From Leptolyngbya sp. BL-A-14 (lineage in GTDB: Bacteria; Cyanobacteriota; Cyanobacteriia; Leptolyngbyales; Leptolyngbyaceae), in assembly GCA_041937185.1 (NCBI GenBank), contig CP166621.1, forward strand, positions 2,196,571-2,260,570: a DNA stretch of 64,000 bases, in the 5' to 3' direction. Position numbers and translations under genes: made by a program. Below, piece by piece: positions 3,095 through 53,782 of this stretch. Numbering within the stretch: position 1 is the first letter of the stretch; each line of letters starts with the position of its first letter. The notes beneath the pieces are model-generated. The model did no database searches. It was not told where the DNA came from and saw only the letters and a list, made by a program, of their open reading frames with translations.

Positions 3095-4612
3095 ATGCCC
3101 ACCCTAGTTAAATCAGCGCCATTCTACGTGCATCCCATTAACGAAAAACTGGCAACTAAAATACTCTCTTTCGACAAACGGCTCTTTGCATCCAATGGTC
3201 GGTTATGCCTTCCCCATTCATTGAGGAGCTTTATGGTATCCACGCCTTCAAGTAATGATGTGACCGCAGAGACAGCGGAAAATCAGTCTAGCTACGGTTC
3301 GAATGAGTTGGGTTATCAGCAGTTGATTTTGTGTGCTGCGCTGATTGGTATTGCCGGTGGGCTGGTGGCAACCGCTTACTATTACGTGTTAGAAGCTTGT
3401 CTTCATATCACCTGGCATACGCTGCCCGACGTTGTGCTGCCACTCTTTCCTGCCATTCCAGCATGGAACTATGTGTGGATTGCGACGACGATCGGCGGTT
3501 TTTGTGTCGGTCTAACGCTGCGCTTTATGGGGCTACCCGGTGAAGTAGCCATGGTGGTGGACAAAGTGCATGATCCGGGTCGCATTGAAGTAAAGCAAAC
3601 ACCCGCCATGATTGTGGCATCGCTGTTTTCCATTACGGCGGGGGGCAGTGCTGGCCCCGAAGCACCGCTGGTGCAAATTCTGGGCAGCTTTGGGGGCTGG
3701 CTCAGCAGCAAACTGCGGCTCACGTTAGTAAACACTCGCGTGCTGACATTTTGCGGCATGAGTGCAGCGCTGGGTGCCTTTTTTGGCGCACCGTTGGGTG
3801 GTGCTTTGTTTGCCCTGGAACTCCCCCATCGACGCGGGTTGGAATATTACGAAGCATTGATTCCCGCCGTGCTATCCGCCATTCTCAGCTTCTTTGTGTT
3901 TCGGTTTAATACCGGGCTAACGATCGGCGGCATGTACCATTTTGAGGCCATTCCAGAACTGACGCTGATGAGCCTGCTGCAAGGCTTGTTACTTGGTGCA
4001 GCTGGTGCGGGTGTAGCCGTTACGTTTGTGTTGATCTTTCGGCTGATTGGCTCTCTGCTGCATCGGCTGGAGCACCACACCATTTTGCTGGCAACGCTCG
4101 GTGGTCTGACCATTGGGCTGCTGGCGCTGGCAGTGCCCCAAACTCTGTTTTTTGGCGAGAAAGAAATTCAGACGATCGTCGAAACGGGTGCCACGTTAGG
4201 GTTAACGATGTTGCTCGTCATTGGTTTCACCAAAATGCTGGCGATCGGCTTCACATTGCATTCTGGCTTTCGGGGCGGTTTCATCTTTCCCCTGTTTTAT
4301 CTGGGTGCCACCTTTGGCTACGCGATCGCTCTCAGCGTCCCCAATCTTCATCCGACGATCGCCATGGTGTGCATGATGGCAGCCGTGAATGTCGCCATTA
4401 CCAAAACACCCATCAGCAGCACGGTGATTCTGAGCGTGTTGTCCGATACAGCAATGGTGCCTGTGATCTTGATTGCGAGCTTTACCAGCTTTTTGCTCAC
4501 GACGCAGGTCTCGCTGATTGGTACCCAGCGATCACGCACCATTTTTCCGGCTGGACCACTCTTACAAGCAGAGCCCCAGCCTATCCCAATCGAAGTGCCT
4601 GTAAAGGTGTGA
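3095..4612 (+). CDS. CLC family voltage-gated chloride channel / H+-Cl- antiporter
   Basis: 505-aa polytopic protein with CLC signature segments GGSAGPEAP (GxEGP-like selectivity filter) and GFTLHSGFRGGFIFP; true start may be an internal Met. Confidence 0.8.
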   Translation: MPTLVKSAPFYVHPINEKLATKILSFDKRLFASNGRLCLPHSLRSFMVSTPSSNDVTAETAENQSSYGSNELGYQQLILCAALIGIAGGLVATAYYYVLEACLHITWHTLPDVVLPLFPAIPAWNYVWIATTIGGFCVGLTLRFMGLPGEVAMVVDKVHDPGRIEVKQTPAMIVASLFSITAGGSAGPEAPLVQILGSFGGWLSSKLRLTLVNTRVLTFCGMSAALGAFFGAPLGGALFALELPHRRGLEYYEALIPAVLSAILSFFVFRFNTGLTIGGMYHFEAIPELTLMSLLQGLLLGAAGAGVAVTFVLIFRLIGSLLHRLEHHTILLATLGGLTIGLLALAVPQTLFFGEKEIQTIVETGATLGLTMLLVIGFTKMLAIGFTLHSGFRGGFIFPLFYLGATFGYAIALSVPNLHPTIAMVCMMAAVNVAITKTPISSTVILSVLSDTAMVPVILIASFTSFLLTTQVSLIGTQRSRTIFPAGPLLQAEPQPIPIEVPVKV

Positions 4613-4759: not shown

Positions 4760-5884
4760 CTAACCCATCCCAGGAATCAAGCTGCTGCTAAGGCGTTTGA
4801 GTGCCCGATTCGCCACATCGGCATAGCGTAATTCACCACACAAAATCTGGCCGATGCGCTGAGTCGCGGAGGGACGCTTAATCCCTACTTTGTAGCCAAT
4901 GTTCGGAACACGGTAGAAAACCCCTGCAAGCCGCTGGGCCCAAAGCATATCGGCTCCCCACTCGTTGTTGATCAAGTCAGTATAAGCTTGCAGCGCATTC
5001 ACGTTGCCTGCCAGAGCTTCGTCGATCGCCCCTGCAGCCTTAACACCTGTAAAGATTGCAGGACGAATGCCTTCAGCCGTGAACGGATCAACTACCGAAG
5101 CGGCTTCTCCAGCTAGCAAAGCATTTTGGGCATGCAGTGTTTGATTTCCATCCCATAGGCAAAGGGAGTGAGCCGTCAGTTGACCGGCTTTGACATTCAG
5201 ACCAGACTTTTGGGCGTAATCGGTCAGCAGTTTGTTCAAGTCTGTAGGATCATTCCCTCGGAAGGTCGCAATGCCGAGCGAATAGCCATCAGCCTTAGGA
5301 AACCGCCAAATATAGCCGTTTTTAACCATGCCAAACTCAAAGTAAGCTTTCTCGGCATCAACATCAGCGGCTGGCACTTCTAGCACAGCCCCAGAACGGC
5401 ACTTCGGTTCTTTGAAGCCAAGCCATTTGGATGTGGGTCCTTTGGCACCATCAGCCGCAATCAGGTAACGACCAGTAATGGCTCCATTCAATGTGTTTAC
5501 CTGCCAGTGATCGGTCTTGAACTCAATCCCAGTGGCCTCAGTGTTGTCTCTTAATTCAGTACCCTGCTTCTGAGCTTGCTGTACAAGAAAGTGATCAAAT
5601 ACATCACGACGTACCATCCACATCGGCTCAGAGGTTTGCAATTTCGCATCGACTGGATCACCGAGTTTCCAGGTGTAGCAAATGTTTTCAAGTTTGCGAT
5701 CAATGGCAGGAGCAAAGTCAAAGTCAAACCATTGCGCGATCGCCGGAGAGACACCACCACAGCATGGCTTGTAACGGGGCAACGATTGCTTTTCAAGTAG
5801 CAGCACCGATCGTCCCCGTTTTGCCAGGTGGTAAGCCGCACTCGCTCCAGCGGGACCCGCTCCTACAACAATGCAATCAAACAT
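4760..5884 (-). CDS. geranylgeranyl reductase family FAD-dependent oxidoreductase
   Basis: N-terminal Rossmann dinucleotide-binding motif DCIVVGAGPAGASAAYHLAKRG; 374 aa; family-level similarity to geranylgeranyl reductases (TIGR02032-like). Confidence 0.7.
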   Translation of the reverse strand: MFDCIVVGAGPAGASAAYHLAKRGRSVLLLEKQSLPRYKPCCGGVSPAIAQWFDFDFAPAIDRKLENICYTWKLGDPVDAKLQTSEPMWMVRRDVFDHFLVQQAQKQGTELRDNTEATGIEFKTDHWQVNTLNGAITGRYLIAADGAKGPTSKWLGFKEPKCRSGAVLEVPAADVDAEKAYFEFGMVKNGYIWRFPKADGYSLGIATFRGNDPTDLNKLLTDYAQKSGLNVKAGQLTAHSLCLWDGNQTLHAQNALLAGEAASVVDPFTAEGIRPAIFTGVKAAGAIDEALAGNVNALQAYTDLINNEWGADMLWAQRLAGVFYRVPNIGYKVGIKRPSATQRIGQILCGELRYADVANRALKRLSSSLIPGMG

Positions 5885-16589: not shown

Positions 16590-16800
16590 TCTGTGGGGCA
16601 CTGGAAGAGGAGAGTGGGGAGTAGGGAGTAGGGAGTAGGGAAGAAATTTGAGTTTTGAATTGTAAGTAGGCTGTGAAGTTCGGGCGTTCGGAGTCAGAAG
16701 ACCTCTGAGTTTGAGACGATTGATCATGCAGGTTTGCCTAACTCTGTTTCCTACTTTTTCCCTTTGCCTTTCCTTCGCAAACAACCAACAACCAACAACT
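16590..16800. repeat. STRR-like heptamer repeat cluster
   Basis: GGGAGTA x4, GAGTTTT, CAACAAC runs. Confidence 0.75.
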
Positions 16801-29789: not shown

Positions 29790-31394
29790 TTAGCATCCAG
29801 CCTCAATCTGCCTCACAGCCGTTAGCGCTGAGTAACTTACCCCTGCCGTTCCCTCACCGGGATGGGTTGAGTCTCCTACCAGCCAAAGGTTACGAATGGG
29901 TGTCCGGTTCGCAAAGCCAAAGGGACCAAACGTAGGTACCCGTTGACCAATGCCACCAACGATGCCCCGATCACGCCCCGTAAAGTGTGCAAACGTGCGA
30001 GGAGTCGCCGCTTCCACCAACAAAATCGTCTCGTCATTCAGGGTGAAGAATTGAGATAACCGGGCGATCGCTTCATCGGTATACCGCTGTTTGAGCAAGG
30101 CAAAAGAGTTAAGAGTTAAGAGTTTTGAGTTTTGAGTTTCAAGTTTAATCTTTTGCCTTCTGCCTTCTGCCTTCTGCCTTCTGCCTTCTACTTCCCCCTT
30201 TTCCCACCAAAGCCCCACATCCGTAAACGACGACGCAATAATCGTCGCCTTCCCCTCCGGTGCCCGACCATCACCCGGACGACTGACCGACACGAAGAGC
30301 GAGTTGTTTTCGCCGATCGGGCCCTCGTAGTCGTATAAAAATTGCAGATGAGGCGGACAGTCTTCAGGAAGCGCACGTTCATCTACGCCCAGATACACCA
30401 CAAACGCACCAGAACTCGGCGGCAGTTTCTCCACCCGTCGTTGGTAGCCGTTGGGAGCCTGGTCGCCCAGCAGTTGCATCAAATTCTGCACCGTTACATT
30501 TGCCACCACGTGGTCAACGGGTTCCGTCCAGCTTTCACCTGTTTTCTGGTTGCGGATCGTTACTCCCGTTGTTCGCCCTTTCTCAGTGTGAATCGCTTTC
30601 ACCGTGTGGCGCATGAGGAGCTTGCCACCATCTCGTTCTAAGGCAGCAACGAGGCGATCGCTCAACGCCTGCATGCTCCCGTGAAGGTGAAACAATCCCT
30701 GTGGCTCCTGAGAAACCCCTAAAGCTGTGGCTGCGTAGAGCAACGCCGTTTCTTCGGCGTCGACCTGAGAATAAAGCTTGAGTTGCAGATCAAGGAAGGT
30801 TCGTAGCCGTTGGTTGTCTGCCAAACCGTAGCCGCGAAGGGCATCTCCCACTGTCGAAAACGTATGCGGCAGCGTCAAAAGCGTATCGGGACGGACAGCC
30901 TTGGTTAATTGCCACAAATCCCACCCGTTGCGTGGCGGTAAGACTGGATCACGAGACTGAAACGCCCAGCTATGGCGAAACAGATCGGACAACAGTTGCC
31001 AGAAGGGTTCGCTGCCTGGAAATTGCCGTTGACGCTCAGCCTGCCATCGCTGCGGGTCGCGCCACACGTTAATGGGTGTGGTTTCTCCAGGCAAATAAAC
31101 GGCACAAGCAGGGTCGCAGTGCGTTGCAGCAGGCAGTTCAATCTCTAGCTCCGAGAAAATGCGGTGATGAATGCCGCCGGGTTCTAACCCTGCAACCTGA
31201 GTCGCACCCACATCAAAGGTAAACCCCTGCCGTTTAAAGGTCGAAGCACAACCACCCGGCACTAGCGCTTGATCCAGCATCAGCACTGAGTAGCCCCGAT
31301 GGGCCAGCAAAGCGCCTGCGGTCAGCCCGCCAATGCCTGCACCAATCACAACCACACGGGGAGAATGAGCACGATCGCCCTGTTTACCTGGCAT
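29790..31394 (-). CDS. phytoene desaturase (CrtI) family FAD-dependent oxidoreductase
   Basis: VVVIGAGIGGLTAGALLAHRGYSVLMLD dinucleotide-binding motif, GGCASTFKRQGFTFDVGA; contains an in-frame STRR-like insertion. Confidence 0.75.
   Translation of the reverse strand: MPGKQGDRAHSPRVVVIGAGIGGLTAGALLAHRGYSVLMLDQALVPGGCASTFKRQGFTFDVGATQVAGLEPGGIHHRIFSELEIELPAATHCDPACAVYLPGETTPINVWRDPQRWQAERQRQFPGSEPFWQLLSDLFRHSWAFQSRDPVLPPRNGWDLWQLTKAVRPDTLLTLPHTFSTVGDALRGYGLADNQRLRTFLDLQLKLYSQVDAEETALLYAATALGVSQEPQGLFHLHGSMQALSDRLVAALERDGGKLLMRHTVKAIHTEKGRTTGVTIRNQKTGESWTEPVDHVVANVTVQNLMQLLGDQAPNGYQRRVEKLPPSSGAFVVYLGVDERALPEDCPPHLQFLYDYEGPIGENNSLFVSVSRPGDGRAPEGKATIIASSFTDVGLWWEKGEVEGRRQKAEGRRQKIKLETQNSKLLTLNSFALLKQRYTDEAIARLSQFFTLNDETILLVEAATPRTFAHFTGRDRGIVGGIGQRVPTFGPFGFANRTPIRNLWLVGDSTHPGEGTAGVSYSALTAVRQIEAGC
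30098..30195. repeat. STRR-like heptamer array inside CDS (in-frame)
   Basis: AAGAGTT, GAGTTTT and CCTTCTG x5 runs; translated as [28 protein letters not shown] within the oxidoreductase. Confidence 0.8.
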
Positions 31395-31596: not shown

Positions 31597-32943
31597 GTGA
31601 AGCTACCCATCGAAGGGCACTGCATGACTTCAACCCTCATCAAATCCACGGCTCATAAACTAAATGCGCCAACACTGCATCGGCTCCCTAACGGCTTGAC
31701 GATCGTCGCCGAGCAGATGCCCGTCGAAGCAGTCAATCTAGATATCTGGCTTAATGTCGGTTCTGCGGTTGAAGCAGACAACATTAACGGGATGGCGCAC
31801 TTCCTAGAGCACATGATCTTCAAAGGCACTGCGCAACTCCAGAGCGGCGAATTTGAGCGCCGGATTGAGCAACGAGGAGCGGTAACCAACGCGGCCACCA
31901 GTCAGGATTACACTCACTACTACATCACGACAGCACCGAAGGATTTTGCAGCGCTAGCCCCCTTACAACTGGATGTTTTGCTCAATGCGAGCATTCCTGA
32001 TGATGGGTTTGAACGCGAACGTCAGGTGGTTTTAGAAGAAATTCGGCGATCGCAGGATAACCCTCGTCGTCGCACCTTTCAGCATGCCACTGAGTTAACG
32101 TTTGATCGACTTCCCTATCGCCGTCAGGTGTTAGGTCCCACCAACGTTATCGAGCAGCTCACGGCTCAACAAATGCGGGATTTTCACCAGCATTGGTATC
32201 AGCCAACTGCGATGACAGCCGTTGCCGTTGGTAATTTACCTGTTGATGAATTGATCCGCATTGTTGAAGAGGGGTTTGAGCAAACTGTTAGCCGTCAGTG
32301 GCCAAGGGGCACTCAATTGCCCGCACCCCACAACCCACAACCCACACCTACACCCCACACCCCACACCCTGAGTCCCCCTTTCAGCACATTGTGCGCCGT
32401 GAATTGGTTGATGCAAGCCTTCAGCAAGCACGACTGGTGATGATCTGGCGCGTGCCAGGGTTGAATGATTTGCAGCAGACTTATGTCCTGGATGTCCTGG
32501 CTTCTGTATTAAGTCACGGTCGCGCGACTCGTCTGGTGCAAGATTTGCGAGAACAACGGGGACTCGTATCGAGCATTGCTGCCAGTAACATCACCTACCG
32601 TCATCAGGGTGCCTTTTACATTTCAGCGCAGTTGCCTGTAGAAAATCTTGATCGAGTAGAGGCGGCGATCGTCCAGCACCTTCGCACACTACAAACAGAG
32701 TTGATTAGCGACGCAGAAATCGCCCGCATTCGGACTCGTGTGGCCAACCATTTCGTCTTTGGCAGCGAAACGCCCAGCGATCGAGCGGGTCTCTACGGCT
32801 ACTACCAAACTCTGGTGGGTGACGTCTCAGCAGCGCTTGACTATCCGAAGCTGATCCAGGCACTGGATGCCGAAGCGGTCAGGACAGCCGTGCAGACCTA
32901 TCTTTCACCCGAAGCCTATGCGGTGGTTACGATTAAGCCGTGA
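31597..32943 (+). CDS. M16 family zinc metallopeptidase (pitrilysin-like processing protease)
   Basis: Inverted zinc-binding motif HFLEHMIFKGT (HxxEH); 448 aa; internal P/H/T-rich segment encoded by CCCCACA/CACAACC repeats. Confidence 0.85.
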   Translation: MKLPIEGHCMTSTLIKSTAHKLNAPTLHRLPNGLTIVAEQMPVEAVNLDIWLNVGSAVEADNINGMAHFLEHMIFKGTAQLQSGEFERRIEQRGAVTNAATSQDYTHYYITTAPKDFAALAPLQLDVLLNASIPDDGFERERQVVLEEIRRSQDNPRRRTFQHATELTFDRLPYRRQVLGPTNVIEQLTAQQMRDFHQHWYQPTAMTAVAVGNLPVDELIRIVEEGFEQTVSRQWPRGTQLPAPHNPQPTPTPHTPHPESPFQHIVRRELVDASLQQARLVMIWRVPGLNDLQQTYVLDVLASVLSHGRATRLVQDLREQRGLVSSIAASNITYRHQGAFYISAQLPVENLDRVEAAIVQHLRTLQTELISDAEIARIRTRVANHFVFGSETPSDRAGLYGYYQTLVGDVSAALDYPKLIQALDAEAVRTAVQTYLSPEAYAVVTIKP

Positions 32944-33025: not shown

Positions 33026-33889
33026 ATGTGGAACCAAATTGCTGCACACATTAGTCAGGCCACAGGAACGCCCTTTCAAGGAAGCGATCGCCGCTCGGTG
33101 GGGGGCGGTTGTATCAATCAAGGCTATCGGCTAGCTGATGACAACATCGCCTATTTTGTCAAACTTAATCAAGCGTCAGAGCTTGGGATGTTTGAGGCCG
33201 AAGCGGTAGGGCTACAGCAAATGCAACAGACCGGCACCATTCGGGTGCCAACGCCTATCTGCTACGGCGCTGAAGGCGGCAGTGCTTACATTGTGCTGGA
33301 ATGGCTGACCTTGGGACGAGGTAATGAGCGATCGTGGCAGCTTATGGGCCAAAAGCTTGCAGCCCTGCATCAGGCGAATGTAGCCGACAAATTTGGGTGG
33401 GAGCGCAACAATACGATCGGCTCCACTACCCAAATCAACACCTGGACGGCTGATTGGATCACTTTTTGGGTAGAGCATCGGCTCAGCTACCAGCTCAAGC
33501 TTGCCGAGCGTCGGGGTGGTCACTTTCCCCTACAAAACCAACTGCTAGAAGCAGTGCCCCACCTGTTAGTAGGACACACACCGCAACCATCATTGGTGCA
33601 TGGTGATTTGTGGTCAGGCAATGCGGCTGTCACAGAGGCAGGTGAACCGGTTATTTTTGATCCAGCCACGTATGTGGGCGATCGAGAAGTTGATCTGGCG
33701 ATGACCGAACTCTTTGGTGGTTTTCCAGCCAGTTTCTATCAGGGATATAGCCAGGTCTTACCGATCGAGGAGGGCTATCAACAGCGCAAAACGCTCTACA
33801 ACCTCTATCACATTCTCAATCACTTCAATCTTTTTGGTGGCAGCTATGAAGCACAAGCCAATCGGATGATGAACCAACTGCTGAAGTAA
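33026..33889 (+). CDS. fructosamine kinase family protein (protein-ribulosamine 3-kinase-like)
   Basis: 287 aa; FN3K-family segments (YFVKLN, LVHGDLWSGN, FDPATYVGDREVDLAMTELFGGF). Confidence 0.85.
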   Translation: MWNQIAAHISQATGTPFQGSDRRSVGGGCINQGYRLADDNIAYFVKLNQASELGMFEAEAVGLQQMQQTGTIRVPTPICYGAEGGSAYIVLEWLTLGRGNERSWQLMGQKLAALHQANVADKFGWERNNTIGSTTQINTWTADWITFWVEHRLSYQLKLAERRGGHFPLQNQLLEAVPHLLVGHTPQPSLVHGDLWSGNAAVTEAGEPVIFDPATYVGDREVDLAMTELFGGFPASFYQGYSQVLPIEEGYQQRKTLYNLYHILNHFNLFGGSYEAQANRMMNQLLK

Positions 33890-35662
33890 GGTTCTTTTCT
33901 GAATTTGGTGATCAAGGTTTGGAGTGATATTTGGCTCGGCAGGAACCGTTTCAACTGGCTAAAAGCACCCTTTTTTGCAAAAGGTCAAAACCAGCCCGAC
34001 CGTACATTTGCCGCTTGAGCATCTTCAGCCGATTGATTTGCCCTTCCACTTGTCCATTGCTCACTGCTAACGTCACGCCTGCTTTGACCGCCTCATAATC
34101 CTCCTGCAAACTCTTGGCAAAGTTTTGAAACTGTTTGATCTTGCTGCAACTGGCTTGCTCCAGCCAGGGGTCAAGCTGCTGGGGCGACCGTTGTCGAACC
34201 AACGCCGCAAATTGCTGAGCGAGAGTAATCGCTGTTGCTAACGCAGGATGCTGCTGTAACTCGATAAGCAACGGTTCATCCTCAATGGCTTGCTGCTGGG
34301 ATGGTTTGAGTACCAGCCAGGCAGCGCGACGGGCACTCAAAGGGGGTTGCTTTGCTTCGCTGCCGGCAAGAGCTGGTCCTCGCCCCTCTGAGGTGCTTAA
34401 CTGTTGCCGTTGCGCTTGACGCAGTTGATGGGTATATTTGGCAACGGTTTGATAGGTCCCCTGATAGCCCTGCTGCTGAATGTCCTCAAACAATTGCTTC
34501 GTCTGACGTTGCCCAGTGTGCCATTGCTCGTATAAGTAGGATTTGTAGGGAGTCAGGATGCTAGGACGGGAACGCCGCCGTGGCGATGGCTGCCATTCGG
34601 GAAAACTGGGAGCCGCCAAGTAGGTAAAAACAGTCCGTTCACCCATGCCTAAATGATGTGCAATATCGAGTACCTGGTAGCCCTGCTGGCGCAGTTTGTG
34701 CACCTGCTCGTAGTTCGCCAATCGTCTTGCCCGCCGTTGCTGCGCTCGTTGTTGCTGCGCCGTTGGCGGTTTGGGTGGAACTACCAGCGGTTTGCCTAAG
34801 GCTCGATGATAAGCGAGGTCTACGACTTTGAGCGCATCACTTTGCGTGGCTAGAAAACGCTCTAGGACTTCCGCCAGATTTTGCAGCAGATGGAAGCGGT
34901 CAGCGACCTGAATCGCTGCCGGTGCGCCTTGCGTCATGCCTTGCTTGTACGCCTTGGAGCGATCTCGCGACAGCACTTGCACACCAGGATGCTGTTGGAG
35001 CCAGGCGGCTAAAGTGTTCGCTTCTCGATCTTTGAGCAACGCGATCGGGTGGTGCTGATCGAGGTCAACCAGGATCGTGCCGTAGCGTTGCCCCTTGCGA
35101 AAGGCGAAATCATCGACGCCTAAAGTTTTAGGGGTCGTCATTGTGGGTAAGGTTTGTCGTGCCACGAGTTGCAACAACGGATTGAGGCTAACCCTGTGCC
35201 CCAACCGTCGGCTCAAGCGGGTGCCGGCCGCGCCGCCTAAGGCGAGTCCAATGGCGGTCAAACAGGCTGCCAAACGGCAGGTGCGTCTTGCCCACGGCAG
35301 GGTGACTTGGGGTAAGCGCTCGGTGAAGATGCGCCGTTGGCAGCCAGCCTTGAGGCAGAAAAACTTCCGCACTTGCAGGCGCAGGGTAACGGTGTAATCG
35401 ATACAGGGCAGATCTTGTAGGGTTCGCTCATAGCGACTGTGAATGCGATGGGTTGCTGACTGGCACAGCGGACAGTGGGCAGCAGATTGGCTGCTTGAAA
35501 CCGTAAGAGTTAGTTGTTTATCGTTCGTAGCGAAGGACCAGTTTTCGAGTCGAAGTAATGCCTGATTCGGCAACAGATGGTGCAGGAAATCCACTACTGC
35601 TTAAGCGTGAAATAGGTACACCTTGATCCTGCCGTAAGATCACCAAATTCAGAAAAGAACCT
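33890..35662 (-). mobile_element. ISL3-family insertion sequence, apparently intact
   Basis: 24-bp perfect terminal inverted repeats GGTTCTTTTCTGAATTTGGTGATC (33890..33913 and reverse-complement 35639..35662); 8-bp direct repeat TGAAGTAA at 33882..33889 and 35663..35670; a single transposase ORF. Confidence 0.85.
33951..35594 (-). CDS. ISL3 family transposase
   Basis: N-terminal zinc-finger (CPLCQ ... HSRYER), DDE region, and ISL3-typical C-terminus NGQVEGQINRLKMLKRQMYGRAGFDLLQKRVLLAS. Confidence 0.9.
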   Translation of the reverse strand: MDFLHHLLPNQALLRLENWSFATNDKQLTLTVSSSQSAAHCPLCQSATHRIHSRYERTLQDLPCIDYTVTLRLQVRKFFCLKAGCQRRIFTERLPQVTLPWARRTCRLAACLTAIGLALGGAAGTRLSRRLGHRVSLNPLLQLVARQTLPTMTTPKTLGVDDFAFRKGQRYGTILVDLDQHHPIALLKDREANTLAAWLQQHPGVQVLSRDRSKAYKQGMTQGAPAAIQVADRFHLLQNLAEVLERFLATQSDALKVVDLAYHRALGKPLVVPPKPPTAQQQRAQQRRARRLANYEQVHKLRQQGYQVLDIAHHLGMGERTVFTYLAAPSFPEWQPSPRRRSRPSILTPYKSYLYEQWHTGQRQTKQLFEDIQQQGYQGTYQTVAKYTHQLRQAQRQQLSTSEGRGPALAGSEAKQPPLSARRAAWLVLKPSQQQAIEDEPLLIELQQHPALATAITLAQQFAALVRQRSPQQLDPWLEQASCSKIKQFQNFAKSLQEDYEAVKAGVTLAVSNGQVEGQINRLKMLKRQMYGRAGFDLLQKRVLLAS

Positions 35663-35864
35663 GAAGTAAGCCATTACTAGTTAACTGACAAATTTGTTGA
35701 CTGGCAAATTTAGCGTCGGTTGAGGTTATAGCGATAGCAAAAACCCAACACCAGGGGCTCTTTTATTGCATTACCCTGCGGGAAGCAAGCGACGTACAGC
35801 TCAGCCCAACCAACGGCAGGACAGGGGTTTCATGAGTTTTGTCAGTTAATCAGTCTTGGACAGT

Positions 35865-36386
35865 TTAAAGCATCAGCACTTGACAAGGCAGTTCTGACAT
35901 ACGTTCGGCTTCTTGAGACCAGGCTTCCGTAGAAAGCAGAACGCTAGATGTGTTCAATCGCACTGGATAGGGCGGTTCTTGTAACGAAAACGAGGAACCA
36001 TTTTTTTTCGTTTTTGCTTTGACTAAACTCACAATCCAGGGCAAAAAGGCTAACAGTTCTTCGGGTAAAACAGTCAACTCAAAATGCCAGCCTTGATTCA
36101 TGCCCTGATGCGGCTGATCACGCTTAAAGAAGGTGATGCCGCCAGCCCCTTTGTTAATTGCAACTCGGAGAATAAAAGGACGCTCTGCTAATAGATTGTC
36201 GGGTGCCGTGTGCGCGTAGATGCTGACATAATTGAGGTGCTCCTGCTCATCCACCCAAGACGCGATCGAGGAGCTTCTGTTGTATGAGCTACCGCTAATT
36301 TTTACAGGAACATTCATTGCGGTGGCGAACAACGTATAAAAGTCGCGTCGCAAATTTGAAACCATTTGTACTGCTTCAGGAGTCAT
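35865..36386 (-). CDS. hypothetical protein
   Basis: 173-aa ORF; no recognisable motif. Confidence 0.4.
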   Translation of the reverse strand: MTPEAVQMVSNLRRDFYTLFATAMNVPVKISGSSYNRSSSIASWVDEQEHLNYVSIYAHTAPDNLLAERPFILRVAINKGAGGITFFKRDQPHQGMNQGWHFELTVLPEELLAFLPWIVSLVKAKTKKNGSSFSLQEPPYPVRLNTSSVLLSTEAWSQEAERMSELPCQVLML

Positions 36387-47368: not shown

Positions 47369-47477
47369 GGAGAGGGATAAAGGATAAAGGATGAAGGATA
47401 AAAAGCTGATCGCTGACTTTTCTACTCCCTACTCCTTACTCCCTACTCCCTGCCCTCTGCCCTCTGCCTTCTCTCCC
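47369..47477. repeat. STRR-like heptamer repeat cluster
   Basis: GGATAAA/GGATGAA runs, CTCCCTA x3, CCCTCTG x3. Confidence 0.8.
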
Positions 47478-48896: not shown

Positions 48897-49115
48897 GGGA
48901 AGTCTCCTTGGTGGTGGTGGAAGGCAGGAGGCAGAAGGCAGGAGGCAGAAGGCAGAGGGCAGAAGGCAGGAGGTTTTTGGGTTGTTAGCGGTTAGTGGTT
49001 AGAAGGAGAGAAAATGCAGCGCTTGTTCTAGCTCAAAACTCAAAACCAACCACTCAAAGCTCAAAACTCTCTAGCGAAGCGGCACGAAGTGCTACTCAAA
49101 ACTCTCTTTCGCTCT
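48897..49115. repeat. composite STRR-like repeat element with conserved AGCGCT core (reverse orientation)
   Basis: GGCAGAA/GGCAGGA runs, GTTAGTG runs, core TTAGAAGGAGAGAAAATGCAGCGCTTGTTCT, AAAACTC runs. Confidence 0.8.
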
Positions 49116-51478: not shown

Positions 51479-52783
51479 TTAGCTGTGCATAATCTCCATC
51501 AAGCAGTCGGCAATCCTTTTGGCGGCTCCGGGTGTGCCCATGCGACGATGACCGTTTTCGGCGATCGTTTGTAGCGCATCGGGATTTTGCAACAGCGATT
51601 GGATCACAGCCGCCACACGATCGGGTTCCTTCACCAACAGAACGGAGGCACCTAATAAACGAGTTTGTGCTTCAGCAAAACGAGGCGTAAACTGCGGACC
51701 TTTGCCTGGAAGGATGATCGCAGGTTTACCCAAGCCGACAAACTGTTCCGTTGCGGTGCCTGCCATCGCGATCGCTACATCGGCTCGATGCAAACACTCT
51801 GCAAACCGTCGTTGCGCCAACACCAGCGTCGATTTGCGATCGCCCAAGCCCACCGTGTAGGAATCTTCCGTCAACTGCTGCCAGCGATACGCCATCAATG
51901 CCTTGTGCAGCAAGTCTACATCCAGTCCGGGCGCGATCGCGGCTAAGAGCGTGAGCGGTCGTGACATCTGGGCAATCATCCCATTCACCGCTTGCAAAAT
52001 CGTTTCCCAATTGGCGTAAGCCTCCGGTGGACGGGAACCGGGAATGAGAGCGATTGTTAAGGCTAAAGGCTGAAGGCTGAAGGCTAAATCTTGACTTTTA
52101 TCCTTTATCCCTAAGCCTTTATCCTTCTCTTCCCACTCCAGCCCATCCATCATTGGATTTCCCAAATCAAACGCTGGAATGTTTCGCCGTCGAAGGCTCG
52201 TTGCCGTGATGGTGTCTCTAGGGAACACCGCTTTGCAGTGTAGATGGCTCATCAGCCACCGCTCCCACGGAAGGTAAATACACCCCGTCCAGCGCTCAAG
52301 GCGATCGTCCCACCAGGAGTCACGCGGCAACCAGCCCCCCTCATCGCGCAGATAGTATTCTGACTTCGCCGTACCCACAAACGCGTAGGGAAGCCCACTG
52401 AGACGGGCGAAGAGGAGGGGGACGATATCGCCAACCGCGAGGATGAGGGAGTGGGGAGTGGGGAATGGGGAGTGGGGAGCGGCGGTTTCCTTTGCCCAGG
52501 CTTTGATGGCGCGGAGTTGTGCCAGCGTGAGTTGAAGTAACCCACCTCGAATGTCGCGCGCAAGCTGCCGCCCATCCTGATAGATGAAACCACCAGACGG
52601 CATGGTCTTGACGGAGCCAATGAGGGAAATGCCATTGTCGATATAGGCATGACCTTCACCCACGATCGGCAAAGCGGCAAGTTCTGGTGGATTGGGCTGT
52701 TGCTGAAGTTCACGCAAGATGCGGAGGGCGATCGCATCTTCACCATGACCGTTGCTAAGACAGAGTACGCGCATGAGCAGCAA
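51479..52783 (-). CDS. lipid-A-disaccharide synthase-related protein (LpxB-like glycosyltransferase)
   Basis: 434 aa; N-terminal LSNGHGEDAIA motif of the LpxB-related family; carries two in-frame heptamer-repeat insertions. Confidence 0.65.
   Translation of the reverse strand: MLLMRVLCLSNGHGEDAIALRILRELQQQPNPPELAALPIVGEGHAYIDNGISLIGSVKTMPSGGFIYQDGRQLARDIRGGLLQLTLAQLRAIKAWAKETAAPHSPFPTPHSLILAVGDIVPLLFARLSGLPYAFVGTAKSEYYLRDEGGWLPRDSWWDDRLERWTGCIYLPWERWLMSHLHCKAVFPRDTITATSLRRRNIPAFDLGNPMMDGLEWEEKDKGLGIKDKSQDLAFSLQPLALTIALIPGSRPPEAYANWETILQAVNGMIAQMSRPLTLLAAIAPGLDVDLLHKALMAYRWQQLTEDSYTVGLGDRKSTLVLAQRRFAECLHRADVAIAMAGTATEQFVGLGKPAIILPGKGPQFTPRFAEAQTRLLGASVLLVKEPDRVAAVIQSLLQNPDALQTIAENGHRRMGTPGAAKRIADCLMEIMHS
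52056..52137. repeat. STRR-like heptamer array inside CDS (in-frame)
   Basis: GGCTAAA, GGCTGAA x2, GGATAAA-type runs; translated as EWEEKDKGLGIKDKSQDLAFSLQPLA inside the LpxB-like ORF. Confidence 0.8.
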
Positions 52784-53483: not shown

Positions 53484-53782
53484 GAAAAATAGTTTTGAGT
53501 TTTGAGTTTTGAGTTTAGTCAGTTTTAAAGCCTTCGGCATGGCTTCGCTAGAGGGGTTGGTTTTCGTTTTTAGCTGGAACCAGCGCTACCTTTTCTCTCC
53601 TTCTAAGCACTTTTCTTGAATGCCCTCTCTTGTATGCCTGAAAGGCTTTAGGGCTATACCACTAACGACCAAAAACCCTTCTGCCTTCTGCCTTCTGCCT
53701 TCTGCCTTCTGCCTTCTGCCTTCTGCCTTCTGCTTTCTGCCTTCTGCTTTCTGCCTTCTGCTTTCTGCCTTCTCCCCCATCC
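53484..53782. repeat. composite STRR-like repeat element with AGCGCT core plus a TTCTGCC array of about 15 copies
   Basis: GAGTTTT x4; core GGAACCAGCGCTACCTTTTCTCTCCTTCTAA; (CCTTCTG)n/(CTTTCTG)n array from 53677 to 53782. Confidence 0.85.

What the first reader, a model, noticed from the sequence alone, without database searches (positions are those of the whole stretch)
33882..35670. Intact ISL3 element inserted exactly at the stop codon of the fructosamine-kinase gene
The 24-bp perfect inverted repeats GGTTCTTTTCTGAATTTGGTGATC lie at 33890..33913 and, reverse-complemented, at 35639..35662. They bracket one 547-aa ISL3 transposase. The 8-bp sequence TGAAGTAA occurs immediately outside both inverted repeats, at 33882..33889 and 35663..35670. 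That is the expected ISL3 target-site duplication. Its left copy supplies the TAA stop of the FN3K-family gene. The perfect inverted repeats, perfect duplication and uninterrupted transposase frame indicate a recent and probably still active copy.
Basis: seen in the sequence. Interest (0 to 1): 0.55.

Follow-up and report, generated by a model that had tools for sequence, protein, structure and literature searches.

The report
Intact, recently moved ISL3 insertion sequence
This is an ordinary but fully intact 1.77-kb ISL3-family jumping gene that landed just after the stop codon of a cyanobacterial fructosamine-kinase gene without damaging it. The one less ordinary point is that its relatives in other cyanobacteria are repeatedly found inside the end-repeats of IS21-type elements.

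Summary
The 24-bp perfect inverted repeats lie at 33890-33913 and 35638-35661. The 8-bp duplication TGAAGTAA lies at 33882-33889 and 35662-35669. The element is 1772 bp long.

Its single 547-aa ORF (33951-35594, minus strand, GTG start) is an ISL3 transposase. It scores 352 bits against NCBIfam NF033550 (cutoff 180) and has the ISL3 zinc ribbon. D161, D211 and E517 are conserved.

The fructosamine-kinase gene keeps its native stop codon. Thirteen related loci have the same gene order without the element.

The source is Leptolyngbya sp. BL-A-14. The identical transposase carries at least four protein accessions there. A second copy with no substitutions has a different flank. Recent activity is therefore well supported.

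NCBI already annotates this gene as an ISL3 family transposase, so it is a new member of a known kind and of low interest.

One side result may be more interesting:
- The transposase carries an IstA-like two-HTH module at aa 297-398.
- In 10 of 15 related loci, an ISL3 end abuts an IS21-type 23-24-bp terminal repeat unit.
- Two of these cases have clean 8-bp duplications.

This suggests, but does not prove, preferential insertion into IS21 ends.

The parts
33026..33889 (+). Fructosamine-kinase (FN3K-family) gene, 287 aa. Its last 8 bp, including the TAA stop, are the left copy of the target duplication.
   Evidence: Pfam PF03881 E 7.4e-120, positions 1-287 of 288. 100% identical to NCBI XGV99384.1 of Leptolyngbya sp. 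BL-A-14. Relatives end at the same residue.
33882..33889 (.). [quoted passage not shown]
33890..33913 (+). Terminal inverted repeat at the end downstream of the transposase gene (IRR): GGTTCTTTTCTGAATTTGGTGATC
   Evidence: Exact match; none expected in 100 shuffles.
33951..35594 (-). ISL3-family transposase gene, 547 aa, GTG start
   Evidence: ORF. (PF01610 E 1.6e-31, PF14690 E 7.1e-8). (NF033550, 352 bits against cutoff 180). (100% identical to NCBI 'ISL3 family transposase', Leptolyngbya sp. BL-A-14).
35355..35480 (-). N-terminal ISL3 zinc ribbon (aa 39-80). C41, C44, H52 and C80 are invariant; C85 is nearly invariant.
34668..35123 (-). First part of the DDE domain (aa 158-309), holding catalytic D161 (35112-35114) and D211 (34962-34964)
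   Evidence: PF01610 positions 1-159 of 240. (D161 and D211 invariant in 13 sequences).
34401..34706 (-). Inserted IstA-like DNA-binding module (aa 297-398: HTH-1, linker, HTH-2), lying between the second D and the E of the catalytic triad
   Evidence: PDB 8Q4D/8B4H IS5376 IstA residues 9-108, E 1.2e-8. (NF033546 positions 3-104, E 7.7e-14). (absent from a 406-aa ISL3 transposase). Domain limits of IstA from PMC10122671.
34044..34046 (-). Codon of the catalytic glutamate E517, in the motif SNGQVEGQINRLK
   Evidence: E517, G518, N521 and K524 are nearly invariant.
35638..35661 (-). Terminal inverted repeat at the end upstream of the transposase gene (IRL); perfect reverse complement of 33890-33913
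35662..35669 (.). [quoted passage not shown]
35865..36386 (-). Convergent neighbour: conserved 173-aa ORF with no Pfam match. In relatives it lies 0-84 nt from the fructosamine-kinase gene.

Best explanation
Window 33890-35661 is an autonomous 1772-bp ISL3-family insertion sequence.

- It has 24-bp perfect terminal inverted repeats that begin with GG.
- It has one gene, for a 547-aa DDE transposase.
- It integrated into the 8 bp TGAAGTAA that end the fructosamine-kinase gene. Staggered cleavage and repair duplicated those 8 bp.
- The left copy of the duplication keeps the gene's last codons and its TAA stop, so the kinase is unchanged.
- The element sits between two convergent genes, which is a harmless position.
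- The insertion is recent on an evolutionary scale, and the element is very likely still able to move.

Shown: the anatomy, family membership, an intact catalytic triad, absence of the element in relatives, and several identical copies in the source genome.

Inferred: actual transposition competence, and the pathway (copy-out-paste-in through a circular intermediate, as PMC9333248 lists for the ISL3 family).
For: - Inverted repeats and duplication.
- Family.
- Conserved zinc-ribbon and D161/D211/E517 residues, and full length relative to 12 homologues.
- An independent Logan contig from run SRR32600072 reproduces the kinase-element junction and breaks 29 nt into the element, as expected at a repeated sequence.
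- Thirteen related loci carry M16 peptidase, kinase, small ORF and S21 with no element. Their kinase genes end at the same residue. In the closest one (L006, 88.7% nt) the alignment continues 5 nt past the stop into the sequence that follows the right copy of the duplication.
- The identical 547-aa protein has at least four NCBI accessions in Leptolyngbya sp. BL-A-14.
- A second copy (L004) matches at 1688 of 1690 aligned positions. The only differences are two single-base deletions in G runs, and the flank is different.
- An 8-bp duplication for an ISL3-family element is documented for Tn7546 (PMC9782665). The same 8 bp is seen here at a Streptomyces copy and at ISAcma23.
Against: - No experiment shows transposition.
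- No sigma-70-like promoter was found on the transposase strand, and the start codon is GTG. Expression may therefore be low.
- Only one copy lies in the window.
- The other copies in the genome could not be retrieved with their flanks.
- No same-species strain with the empty site was available. The intergenic DNA is not conserved at nucleotide level in the relatives.
- The right junction has no independent read support.
Confidence: 0.9

Rival explanations
1. The element is intact in sequence but functionally silent. It would be a fixed copy that no longer moves, for example through lack of expression or host control.
For: GTG start codon and no promoter-like site on the transposase strand. 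No direct evidence of movement.
Against: At least four identical protein copies in one genome, and a second copy without a single substitution but with a different flank. These are hard to reconcile with long inactivity. The homologue at 90% identity uses TTG at the same position, so a weak start codon is the family norm rather than decay.
Confidence: 0.08
2. The placement is an assembly artefact. A multi-copy repeat would have been placed wrongly in a metagenome-assembled genome.
For: The source is labelled a MAG. The element is multi-copy.
Against: A perfect 8-bp duplication flanks the element, which a mis-join would not create. The left junction is reproduced in an independent Logan assembly of run SRR32600072. 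The sequence after the right duplication continues the alignment with the closest relative.
Confidence: 0.02
3. The 1772-bp unit is only the core of a longer mobile unit. That unit would have an outer pair of roughly 20-bp repeats (motif CTGCTGTATTTTCACAACTTCG), which the window copy has lost.
For: In L010, L011, L024 and L027 the element is flanked on both sides by inverted copies of that motif. In L011 an 8-bp direct repeat (GCAACAAC) lies outside them. E. coli and Sinorhizobium relatives also show inverted similarity 13-18 nt outside the GG core.
Against: Clean 8-bp duplications lie directly at the GG ends in the window, in a Streptomyces copy (CGTTCTCT) and in ISAcma23 (CGAGGTTA). The motif is the terminal unit of arrays of 23-24-bp repeats at both ends of complete IS21 elements, including an IS21 end with no ISL3 element in it. 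It therefore belongs to IS21, not to the ISL3 element.
Confidence: 0.05
4. The insertion has been co-opted. For example, transposase transcription running into the kinase gene could give antisense control, or the element could supply a 3' end signal.
For: The transposase gene is convergent with the kinase gene, and no terminator-like site lies at that end of the element.
Against: No relative has the element at this site. There is no sign of selection and no data on transcripts.
Confidence: 0.03

Closest known systems
ISL3 family of insertion sequences (ISfinder family; NCBIfam NF033550, Pfam PF01610/PF14690)
   Same: One DDE transposase with an N-terminal zinc ribbon, terminal inverted repeats starting with GG, an 8-bp target duplication, and a size within the family range.
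   Different: It belongs to the long form (about 500-560 aa) with roughly 150 extra residues between the second D and the E. The short 406-aa form lacks them.
ISAcma23 of Acaryochloris marina MBIC11017 (NCBI: 'ISL3-like element ISAcma23 family transposase')
   Same: Same architecture, 557 aa, 55% amino-acid identity over the full length. Similar repeat ending ...TTTTGGTGAT. 8-bp duplication.
   Different: Only 55% identical, so it is a different IS. The pREB2 copy sits inside the terminal repeats of an IS21 element, whereas the window copy sits in ordinary intergenic DNA.
Unnamed ISL3 elements of Leptolyngbyaceae metagenomes and Cyanothece sp. PCC 7425 (P0001 90%, P0003 86%, P0016 69% amino-acid identity)
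   Same: The 24-bp repeat is identical in L005, L010 and in Cyanobacteriota bacterium JS3. Same length and same non-ATG start position.
   Different: Nucleotide identity is 80-88%. This is below the isoform level used by ISfinder (own knowledge), so the window element would receive its own name.
IstA transposase of IS21-family element IS5376 (PDB 8B4H, 8Q4D)
   Same: aa 297-398 align with IstA residues 9-108 (E 1.2e-8). These are HTH-1, the minor-groove linker and HTH-2, which read the 23-bp direct repeats of IS21 ends (PMC10122671).
   Different: There is no rve-type catalytic domain and no IstB helper gene. The module is internal rather than N-terminal. Similarity to the IstA of the cyanobacterial IS21 elements that are actually hit is limited to HTH-1 (hhalign probability 88%; BLASTP finds nothing).
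IR-targeting by IS30, and targeted insertion by IS911
   Same: In those elements the transposase places new copies next to sequences it can bind, namely the ends of resident elements (PMC9333248). The relatives of the window element show a comparable end-directed pattern.
   Different: There the target is the element's own repeat. Here the ends belong to a different family (IS21). The window copy itself is not at such a site.

Membership tests
ISL3 family IS | Transposase matches the ISL3 DDE profile above the curated threshold | tested here: met
   NF033550 352.4 bits (cutoff 180), aa 30-546. PF01610 110.4 bits (cutoff 23).
ISL3 family IS | N-terminal zinc ribbon of IS204/IS1001/IS1096/IS1165 type | tested here: met
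   PF14690 33.2 bits (cutoff 25.5), aa 39-80. C41, C44, H52 and C80 are invariant.
ISL3 family IS | Catalytic D, D, E residues present | tested here: met
   D161 and D211 are invariant. E517 is present in all full-length sequences of a 13-sequence alignment spanning five phyla.
ISL3 family IS | Terminal inverted repeats that begin with GG (family description recalled from ISfinder; not checked against a source here) | tested here: met
   24 of 24 bp complementary, GGTTC... at both ends. The same GGYTC start is seen in all relatives examined.
ISL3 family IS | 8-bp target-site duplication | tested here: met
   TGAAGTAA on both sides. 8 bp is documented for ISL3-family Tn7546 (PMC9782665).
ISL3 family IS | Transposition by copy-out-paste-in through a circular intermediate | not testable with these tools
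   PMC9333248 lists this for the ISL3 family. Testing needs PCR for the IRL-IRR junction.
ISL3 family IS | Multiple copies at different sites in one genome (evidence of mobility) | tested here: met
   At least four accessions of the identical protein in BL-A-14. A second flank is seen in L004. The flanks of the other copies could not be retrieved.
IS21 family IS | rve-type IstA transposase together with an IstB AAA+ helper gene | tested here: not met
   Only IstA positions 3-104 of 294 match (51.9 bits, cutoff 160). There is no rve domain and no second gene.
Composite transposon | Two IS copies bracketing cargo genes | tested here: not met
   Only one copy of the element and of its repeat in the 64 kb.

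The most novel reading that the evidence does not exclude
The window element belongs to a clade of long-form ISL3 elements that preferentially integrate at the unit boundaries of the 23-24-bp terminal direct repeats of IS21-family elements. In other words, one IS family would use the ends of another as a safe landing site.

The clade's transposase carries an IstA-like HTH-1/linker/HTH-2 module, inserted in the DDE domain. This is the module that in IstA reads such repeats. It may mediate the choice of target. Alternatively, it may bind only the element's own ends, with the sharply bent R1-R2 DNA of IstA-bound ends or a plain preference for the 8-mer NAACTTCG doing the targeting.

The window copy shows that other sites are also used. 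Its target, read as TTACTTCA, shares the core ACTTC with the consensus CAACTTCG.
Probability: 0.4. Interest if true: 0.55.

Novelty: new member of a known kind. Interest (0 to 1): 0.2.

Why it matters
As found, it matters little. It is a correctly recognised, intact ISL3 element at a neutral site, and NCBI already labels its gene as an ISL3 family transposase. It is useful as a marker of recent genome plasticity in Leptolyngbya sp. BL-A-14. It is also a clean reference copy, with perfect repeats and a perfect duplication, for a still unnamed IS.

The side observation could matter more. A natural case in which one transposase family carries the end-recognition module of another family, and is found again and again inside that family's ends, would bear on three questions:
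- how insertion sequences choose safe targets;
- how they inactivate competitors, since splitting R1 from R2 should disable an IS21 end (IstA needs two complete repeats, PMC10122671);
- how DNA-binding modules are exchanged between transposases.

Tried and rejected
1. The excess of TGAAGTAA in the window (9 sites against 1.9 expected) is not a repeat family. The nine contexts are unrelated.

2. The 16-nt tandem repeat next to the element (35680-35711) looked like an IS21-type unit by eye. It needs more than 3 edits to match the unit core, and several unrelated window sites match better. Rejected.

3. I first thought the ISL3 repeat resembled the IS21 unit (about 11 of 20 positions). For the L. 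boryana pair the match is 7-8 of 24, which is chance level. I do not claim this similarity.

4. 'The IstA-like module was borrowed from the very IS21 elements that are hit' is not supported. BLASTP against the neighbouring IstA finds nothing. hhalign aligns only HTH-1 (probability 88%). The module is also present in long-form ISL3 transposases of Bacteroidota, Actinomycetota and Proteobacteria.

5. Retrieval of the other BL-A-14 copies and of the right junction failed. These proteins are not indexed with their contigs.

6. No same-species empty site was found. The genome and metagenome scans with the 24-bp repeat returned only one other genome and one metagenome contig.

7. Rfam, tRNA and promoter/terminator scans found nothing relevant.

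8. A first base-by-base comparison with L004 was thrown out of register by an indel. It was replaced by a gapped alignment.
Full report
**Observation.** Reading 33700-35850 and running the repeat and pattern searches confirm the finding, with a one-base shift on the right side.
- GGTTCTTTTCTGAATTTGGTGATC lies at 33890-33913. Its perfect reverse complement lies at 35638-35661. These are the only two matches in the window even with 3 mismatches allowed, against none in 100 shuffles.
- TGAAGTAA lies directly outside both repeats, at 33882-33889 and 35662-35669.
- The element is therefore 33890-35661, 1772 bp.
- Because the flanking bases happen to match the terminal bases of the element, the literal direct repeat is 10 bp (CTGAAGTAAG). 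The symmetric GG...CC ends make 8 bp the correct reading.
- A single ORF of 547 aa (33951-35594, minus strand, GTG start) fills the element.

**What it is.**
- The protein matches NCBIfam transpos_ISL3 at 352 bits (cutoff 180). It also matches Pfam DDE_Tnp_ISL3 (E 1.6e-31) and the ISL3 zinc ribbon.
- Of the homologues found, those that carry a source name are called ISL3 or IS204/IS1001/IS1096/IS1165 transposases. The closest are 547-560-aa proteins from Leptolyngbyaceae-type metagenomes (up to 90% identity) and Cyanothece PCC 7425 (69%).
- I aligned it with 12 homologues from Cyanobacteria, Bacteroidota, Actinomycetota and Alpha-, Beta- and Gammaproteobacteria. C41, C44, H52, C80, D161 and D211 are invariant. 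E517 sits in the C-terminal motif SNGQVEGQINRLK and is present in every full-length sequence. The catalytic apparatus is therefore intact and the protein is full length.
- A homologue at 90% identity starts with TTG at the same position, so the non-ATG start is a family trait and not damage.

**Context and the 'stop codon' claim.**
- The left neighbour (33026-33889) is a complete fructosamine kinase (PF03881, positions 1-287 of 288).
- Its exact sequence is NCBI XGV99384.1 of 'MAG: Leptolyngbya sp. BL-A-14', on a 7,186,627-bp contig. This identifies the source genome.
- Thirteen related loci were retrieved through kinase homologues and through the S21 protein: L006-L009 and L029-L038.
- In the loci that extend far enough, the order is M16 peptidase, kinase, then (convergent) a 165-177-aa ORF and/or S21. 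None has an element between the kinase gene and what follows it.
- Their kinase genes end at the same residue (...LLK* or ...LLQ*).
- In the closest relative (L006, 88.7% nt), the alignment runs 5 nt past the stop into the sequence that follows the right copy of the duplication in the window. The pre-insertion sequence was therefore ...CTGAAGTAAGCCAT... with one copy of TGAAGTAA. The kinase gene is unaltered, and the element sits between two convergent genes.
- No promoter-like or terminator-like signal of note lies at the junctions. The base composition of the element resembles that of its surroundings.

**Recency and activity.**
- The window holds one copy.
- The identical 547-aa protein (P0247) is recorded under at least four NCBI accessions in BL-A-14: XGV94349.1, XGV95409.1, XGV95883.1 and XGV97587.1.
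- The listing is capped at four, and none of the four is numerically next to the kinase accession. The window copy is therefore probably a further one. This is an inference.
- A Logan contig from run SRR32600072 reproduces the kinase-element junction and stops 29 nt inside the element, as assemblers do at repeats.
- A contig from run SRR32600071 (L004) carries 1688 bp of the element. Its only differences are two single-base deletions in G runs, and it has a different flank.
- Several copies without any substitution, at different sites, are the standard signature of recent transposition. Present competence remains an inference.

**Mechanism.**
- Shown: the two ends, the transposase with an intact triad, and the 8-bp staggered-cut signature.
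- From the literature: ISL3 is listed among the families that use copy-out-paste-in through a circular intermediate (PMC9333248). An 8-bp duplication is documented for the ISL3-family element Tn7546 (PMC9782665).
- From other copies examined here: perfect 8-bp duplications occur at the GG ends of a Streptomyces copy (CGTTCTCT) and of ISAcma23 (CGAGGTTA).

**An unexpected domain.**
- The NCBIfam ISL3 profile has 370 positions but spans 517 residues of this protein. The extra stretch lies between D211 and E517.
- Residues 297-398 match the N-terminus of the IS21-family transposase IstA (NF033546 positions 3-104, E 7.7e-14).
- The same residues match the solved IS5376 IstA (PDB 8Q4D/8B4H, residues 9-108, E 1.2e-8).
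- According to PMC10122671, IstA residues 1-39 and 55-104 are HTH-1 and HTH-2, joined by a minor-groove-binding linker. They read the direct repeats (L1/L2, R1/R2, spaced 23 bp) of IS21 ends.
- The module is present in every long-form ISL3 transposase I tested: Spirosoma 501 aa, Streptomyces 529, Sinorhizobium 535, E. coli 539, L. boryana 557. It is absent from a 406-aa Ralstonia ISL3 transposase.
- It is therefore an old feature of a widespread long-form clade and is not special to this element.

**Relatives sit in IS21 ends.**
- While collecting other copies I noticed that the DNA just outside their GG ends is similar between unrelated genomes. The typical sequence is ...CTGCTGTATTTTCACAACTTCG|GGTTC....
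- This motif is the terminal unit of arrays of 23-24-bp direct repeats at both ends of complete IS21-family elements. Those elements have IstA (274 and 287 bits against cutoff 160) and IstB, in L. boryana NIES-2135 plasmid 2 and Chroococcidiopsis CCNUC1 pB. One of these IS21 ends has no ISL3 element in it.
- There are two clean cases. In A. marina pREB2, ISAcma23 lies downstream of istB between units R2 and R1, with a perfect duplication CGAGGTTA. In L. boryana, a 65%-identical element lies after unit 1 with CAACTTCG/GAACTTCG (7 of 8) and the array continues on the other side.
- Other copies abut unit 2 (L010), unit 3 (L002) or unit 4 (L003). Either end of the ISL3 element can face the unit, and at least five distinct ISL3 species are involved. 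These must be several independent events.
- Of 15 loci found without using the motif, 10 have an IS21-type unit abutting an ISL3 end.
- With a strict pattern, 8 of 19 ends qualify, against a background of about 1e-4 per position.
- Several copies are flanked by inverted terminal units on both sides (L010, L011, L024, L027). In L011 an 8-bp repeat lies outside them. This fits either insertion into IS21-derived miniature elements, or recombination between ISL3 copies inserted in both ends of one IS21. That explanation is inference.

**Limits of the side result.**
- The window has no IS21-type unit. Its target, read as TTACTTCA, shares only the core ACTTC with CAACTTCG. That is 5 of 8 positions, with p about 0.03-0.05 by my own calculation.
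- The IstA-like module resembles the IstA of the cyanobacterial IS21 elements only in HTH-1.
- I found no convincing similarity between ISL3 repeats and IS21 units.
- E. coli and Sinorhizobium long-form elements show inverted similarity 13-18 nt outside the GG core without recognisable IS21 features.
- The link between module and target is therefore a hypothesis. Plausible alternatives are a plain 8-mer preference, or attraction to the sharply bent R1-R2 junction of IstA-bound ends (bending described in PMC10122671).
- Full-text searches found no paper describing ISL3 insertion into IS21 terminal repeats. The library is incomplete, so this is not proof of novelty.

**Verdict.** This is an intact, recently transposed ISL3-family insertion sequence at a neutral site, already annotated as such by NCBI. 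It is a new member of a known kind and of low interest. The IS21-end association of its relatives and the IstA-like module are recorded as the most novel reading that the evidence allows.

Noticed in passing
L028:1354-1428 and 3239-3259; L014:3001-3021 and 4942-4980; L010, L011, L012, L002, L003, L004, L024, L027 junctions: Relatives of the window element are repeatedly found abutting 23-24-bp terminal repeat units of IS21-family elements. Two cases have clean 8-bp duplications: CGAGGTTA, and CAACTTCG/GAACTTCG. Ten of 15 loci found without using the motif show the association.
   Followed up: partly
window 34401-34706 (aa 297-398 of the transposase): An IstA-like HTH-1/linker/HTH-2 module (PDB 8Q4D, E 1.2e-8) is inserted between the second D and the E of the ISL3 DDE domain. 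It is present in long-form ISL3 transposases of five phyla and absent from a 406-aa one.
   Followed up: partly
window 1388, 3586, 15688, 20390, 21935, 33882, 35662, 52533, 63287: The 8-mer TGAAGTAA occurs 9 times against 1.9 expected from shuffles. The contexts are unrelated, so it is not a repeat family. The excess is unexplained.
   Followed up: partly
window 35680-35711: A 16-nt tandem repeat (GTTAACTGACAAATTT GTTGACTGGCAAATTT) lies 10 nt beyond the right target duplication. It is not significantly similar to IS21-type units. The intergenic region here is about 110 nt longer than in relatives.
   Followed up: partly
window 53677-53773, 48920-48973, 32320-32369, 30150-30189, 16612-16641, 47422-47451, 52447-52479: There are several arrays of tandem heptamers (for example CCTTCTG x13.9, GAAGGCA x7.7, CCCACAC x7.3). 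They resemble the short tandemly repeated heptamers known from cyanobacteria (own knowledge).
   Followed up: no
window 35865-36386 (-): A 173-aa ORF with no Pfam match is conserved (165-177 aa) at the same position, between S21 and the fructosamine-kinase gene, in most related Leptolyngbyaceae loci.
   Followed up: partly
L003:6092-6748: Cyanobacteriota bacterium JS3 carries a 657-bp internally deleted derivative of a related element. Both 24-bp repeats are intact and the flanks do not match each other. It lies between a four-unit and a one-unit IS21-type array.
   Followed up: partly
L011:1294-1424: A roughly 130-bp miniature element with ISL3-like inverted repeats (GGTTCTTGTCAGCTTTTGGTGATC) lies 8 bp from the full element, inside the same pair of IS21-type terminal units.
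   Followed up: no
L023:929-978: In L. boryana plasmid 1, two different ISL3-type ends lie tip to tip, separated by exactly 8 bp (GAACTTCG). This is the same 8-mer as the unit-end target.
   Followed up: no
L026:1034-1093 and 2885-2944: A Chroococcidiopsis copy is flanked by 60 nt of identical sequence in inverted orientation outside its GG ends. It is apparently nested in another element with long inverted repeats.
   Followed up: no
L021:1322-1362/3039-3079; L020:1368-1402/3114-3148: In the E. coli and Sinorhizobium long-form ISL3 elements, inverted similarity extends 13-18 nt outside the GGYTC core. In these copies no direct repeat was found at either boundary.
   Followed up: no
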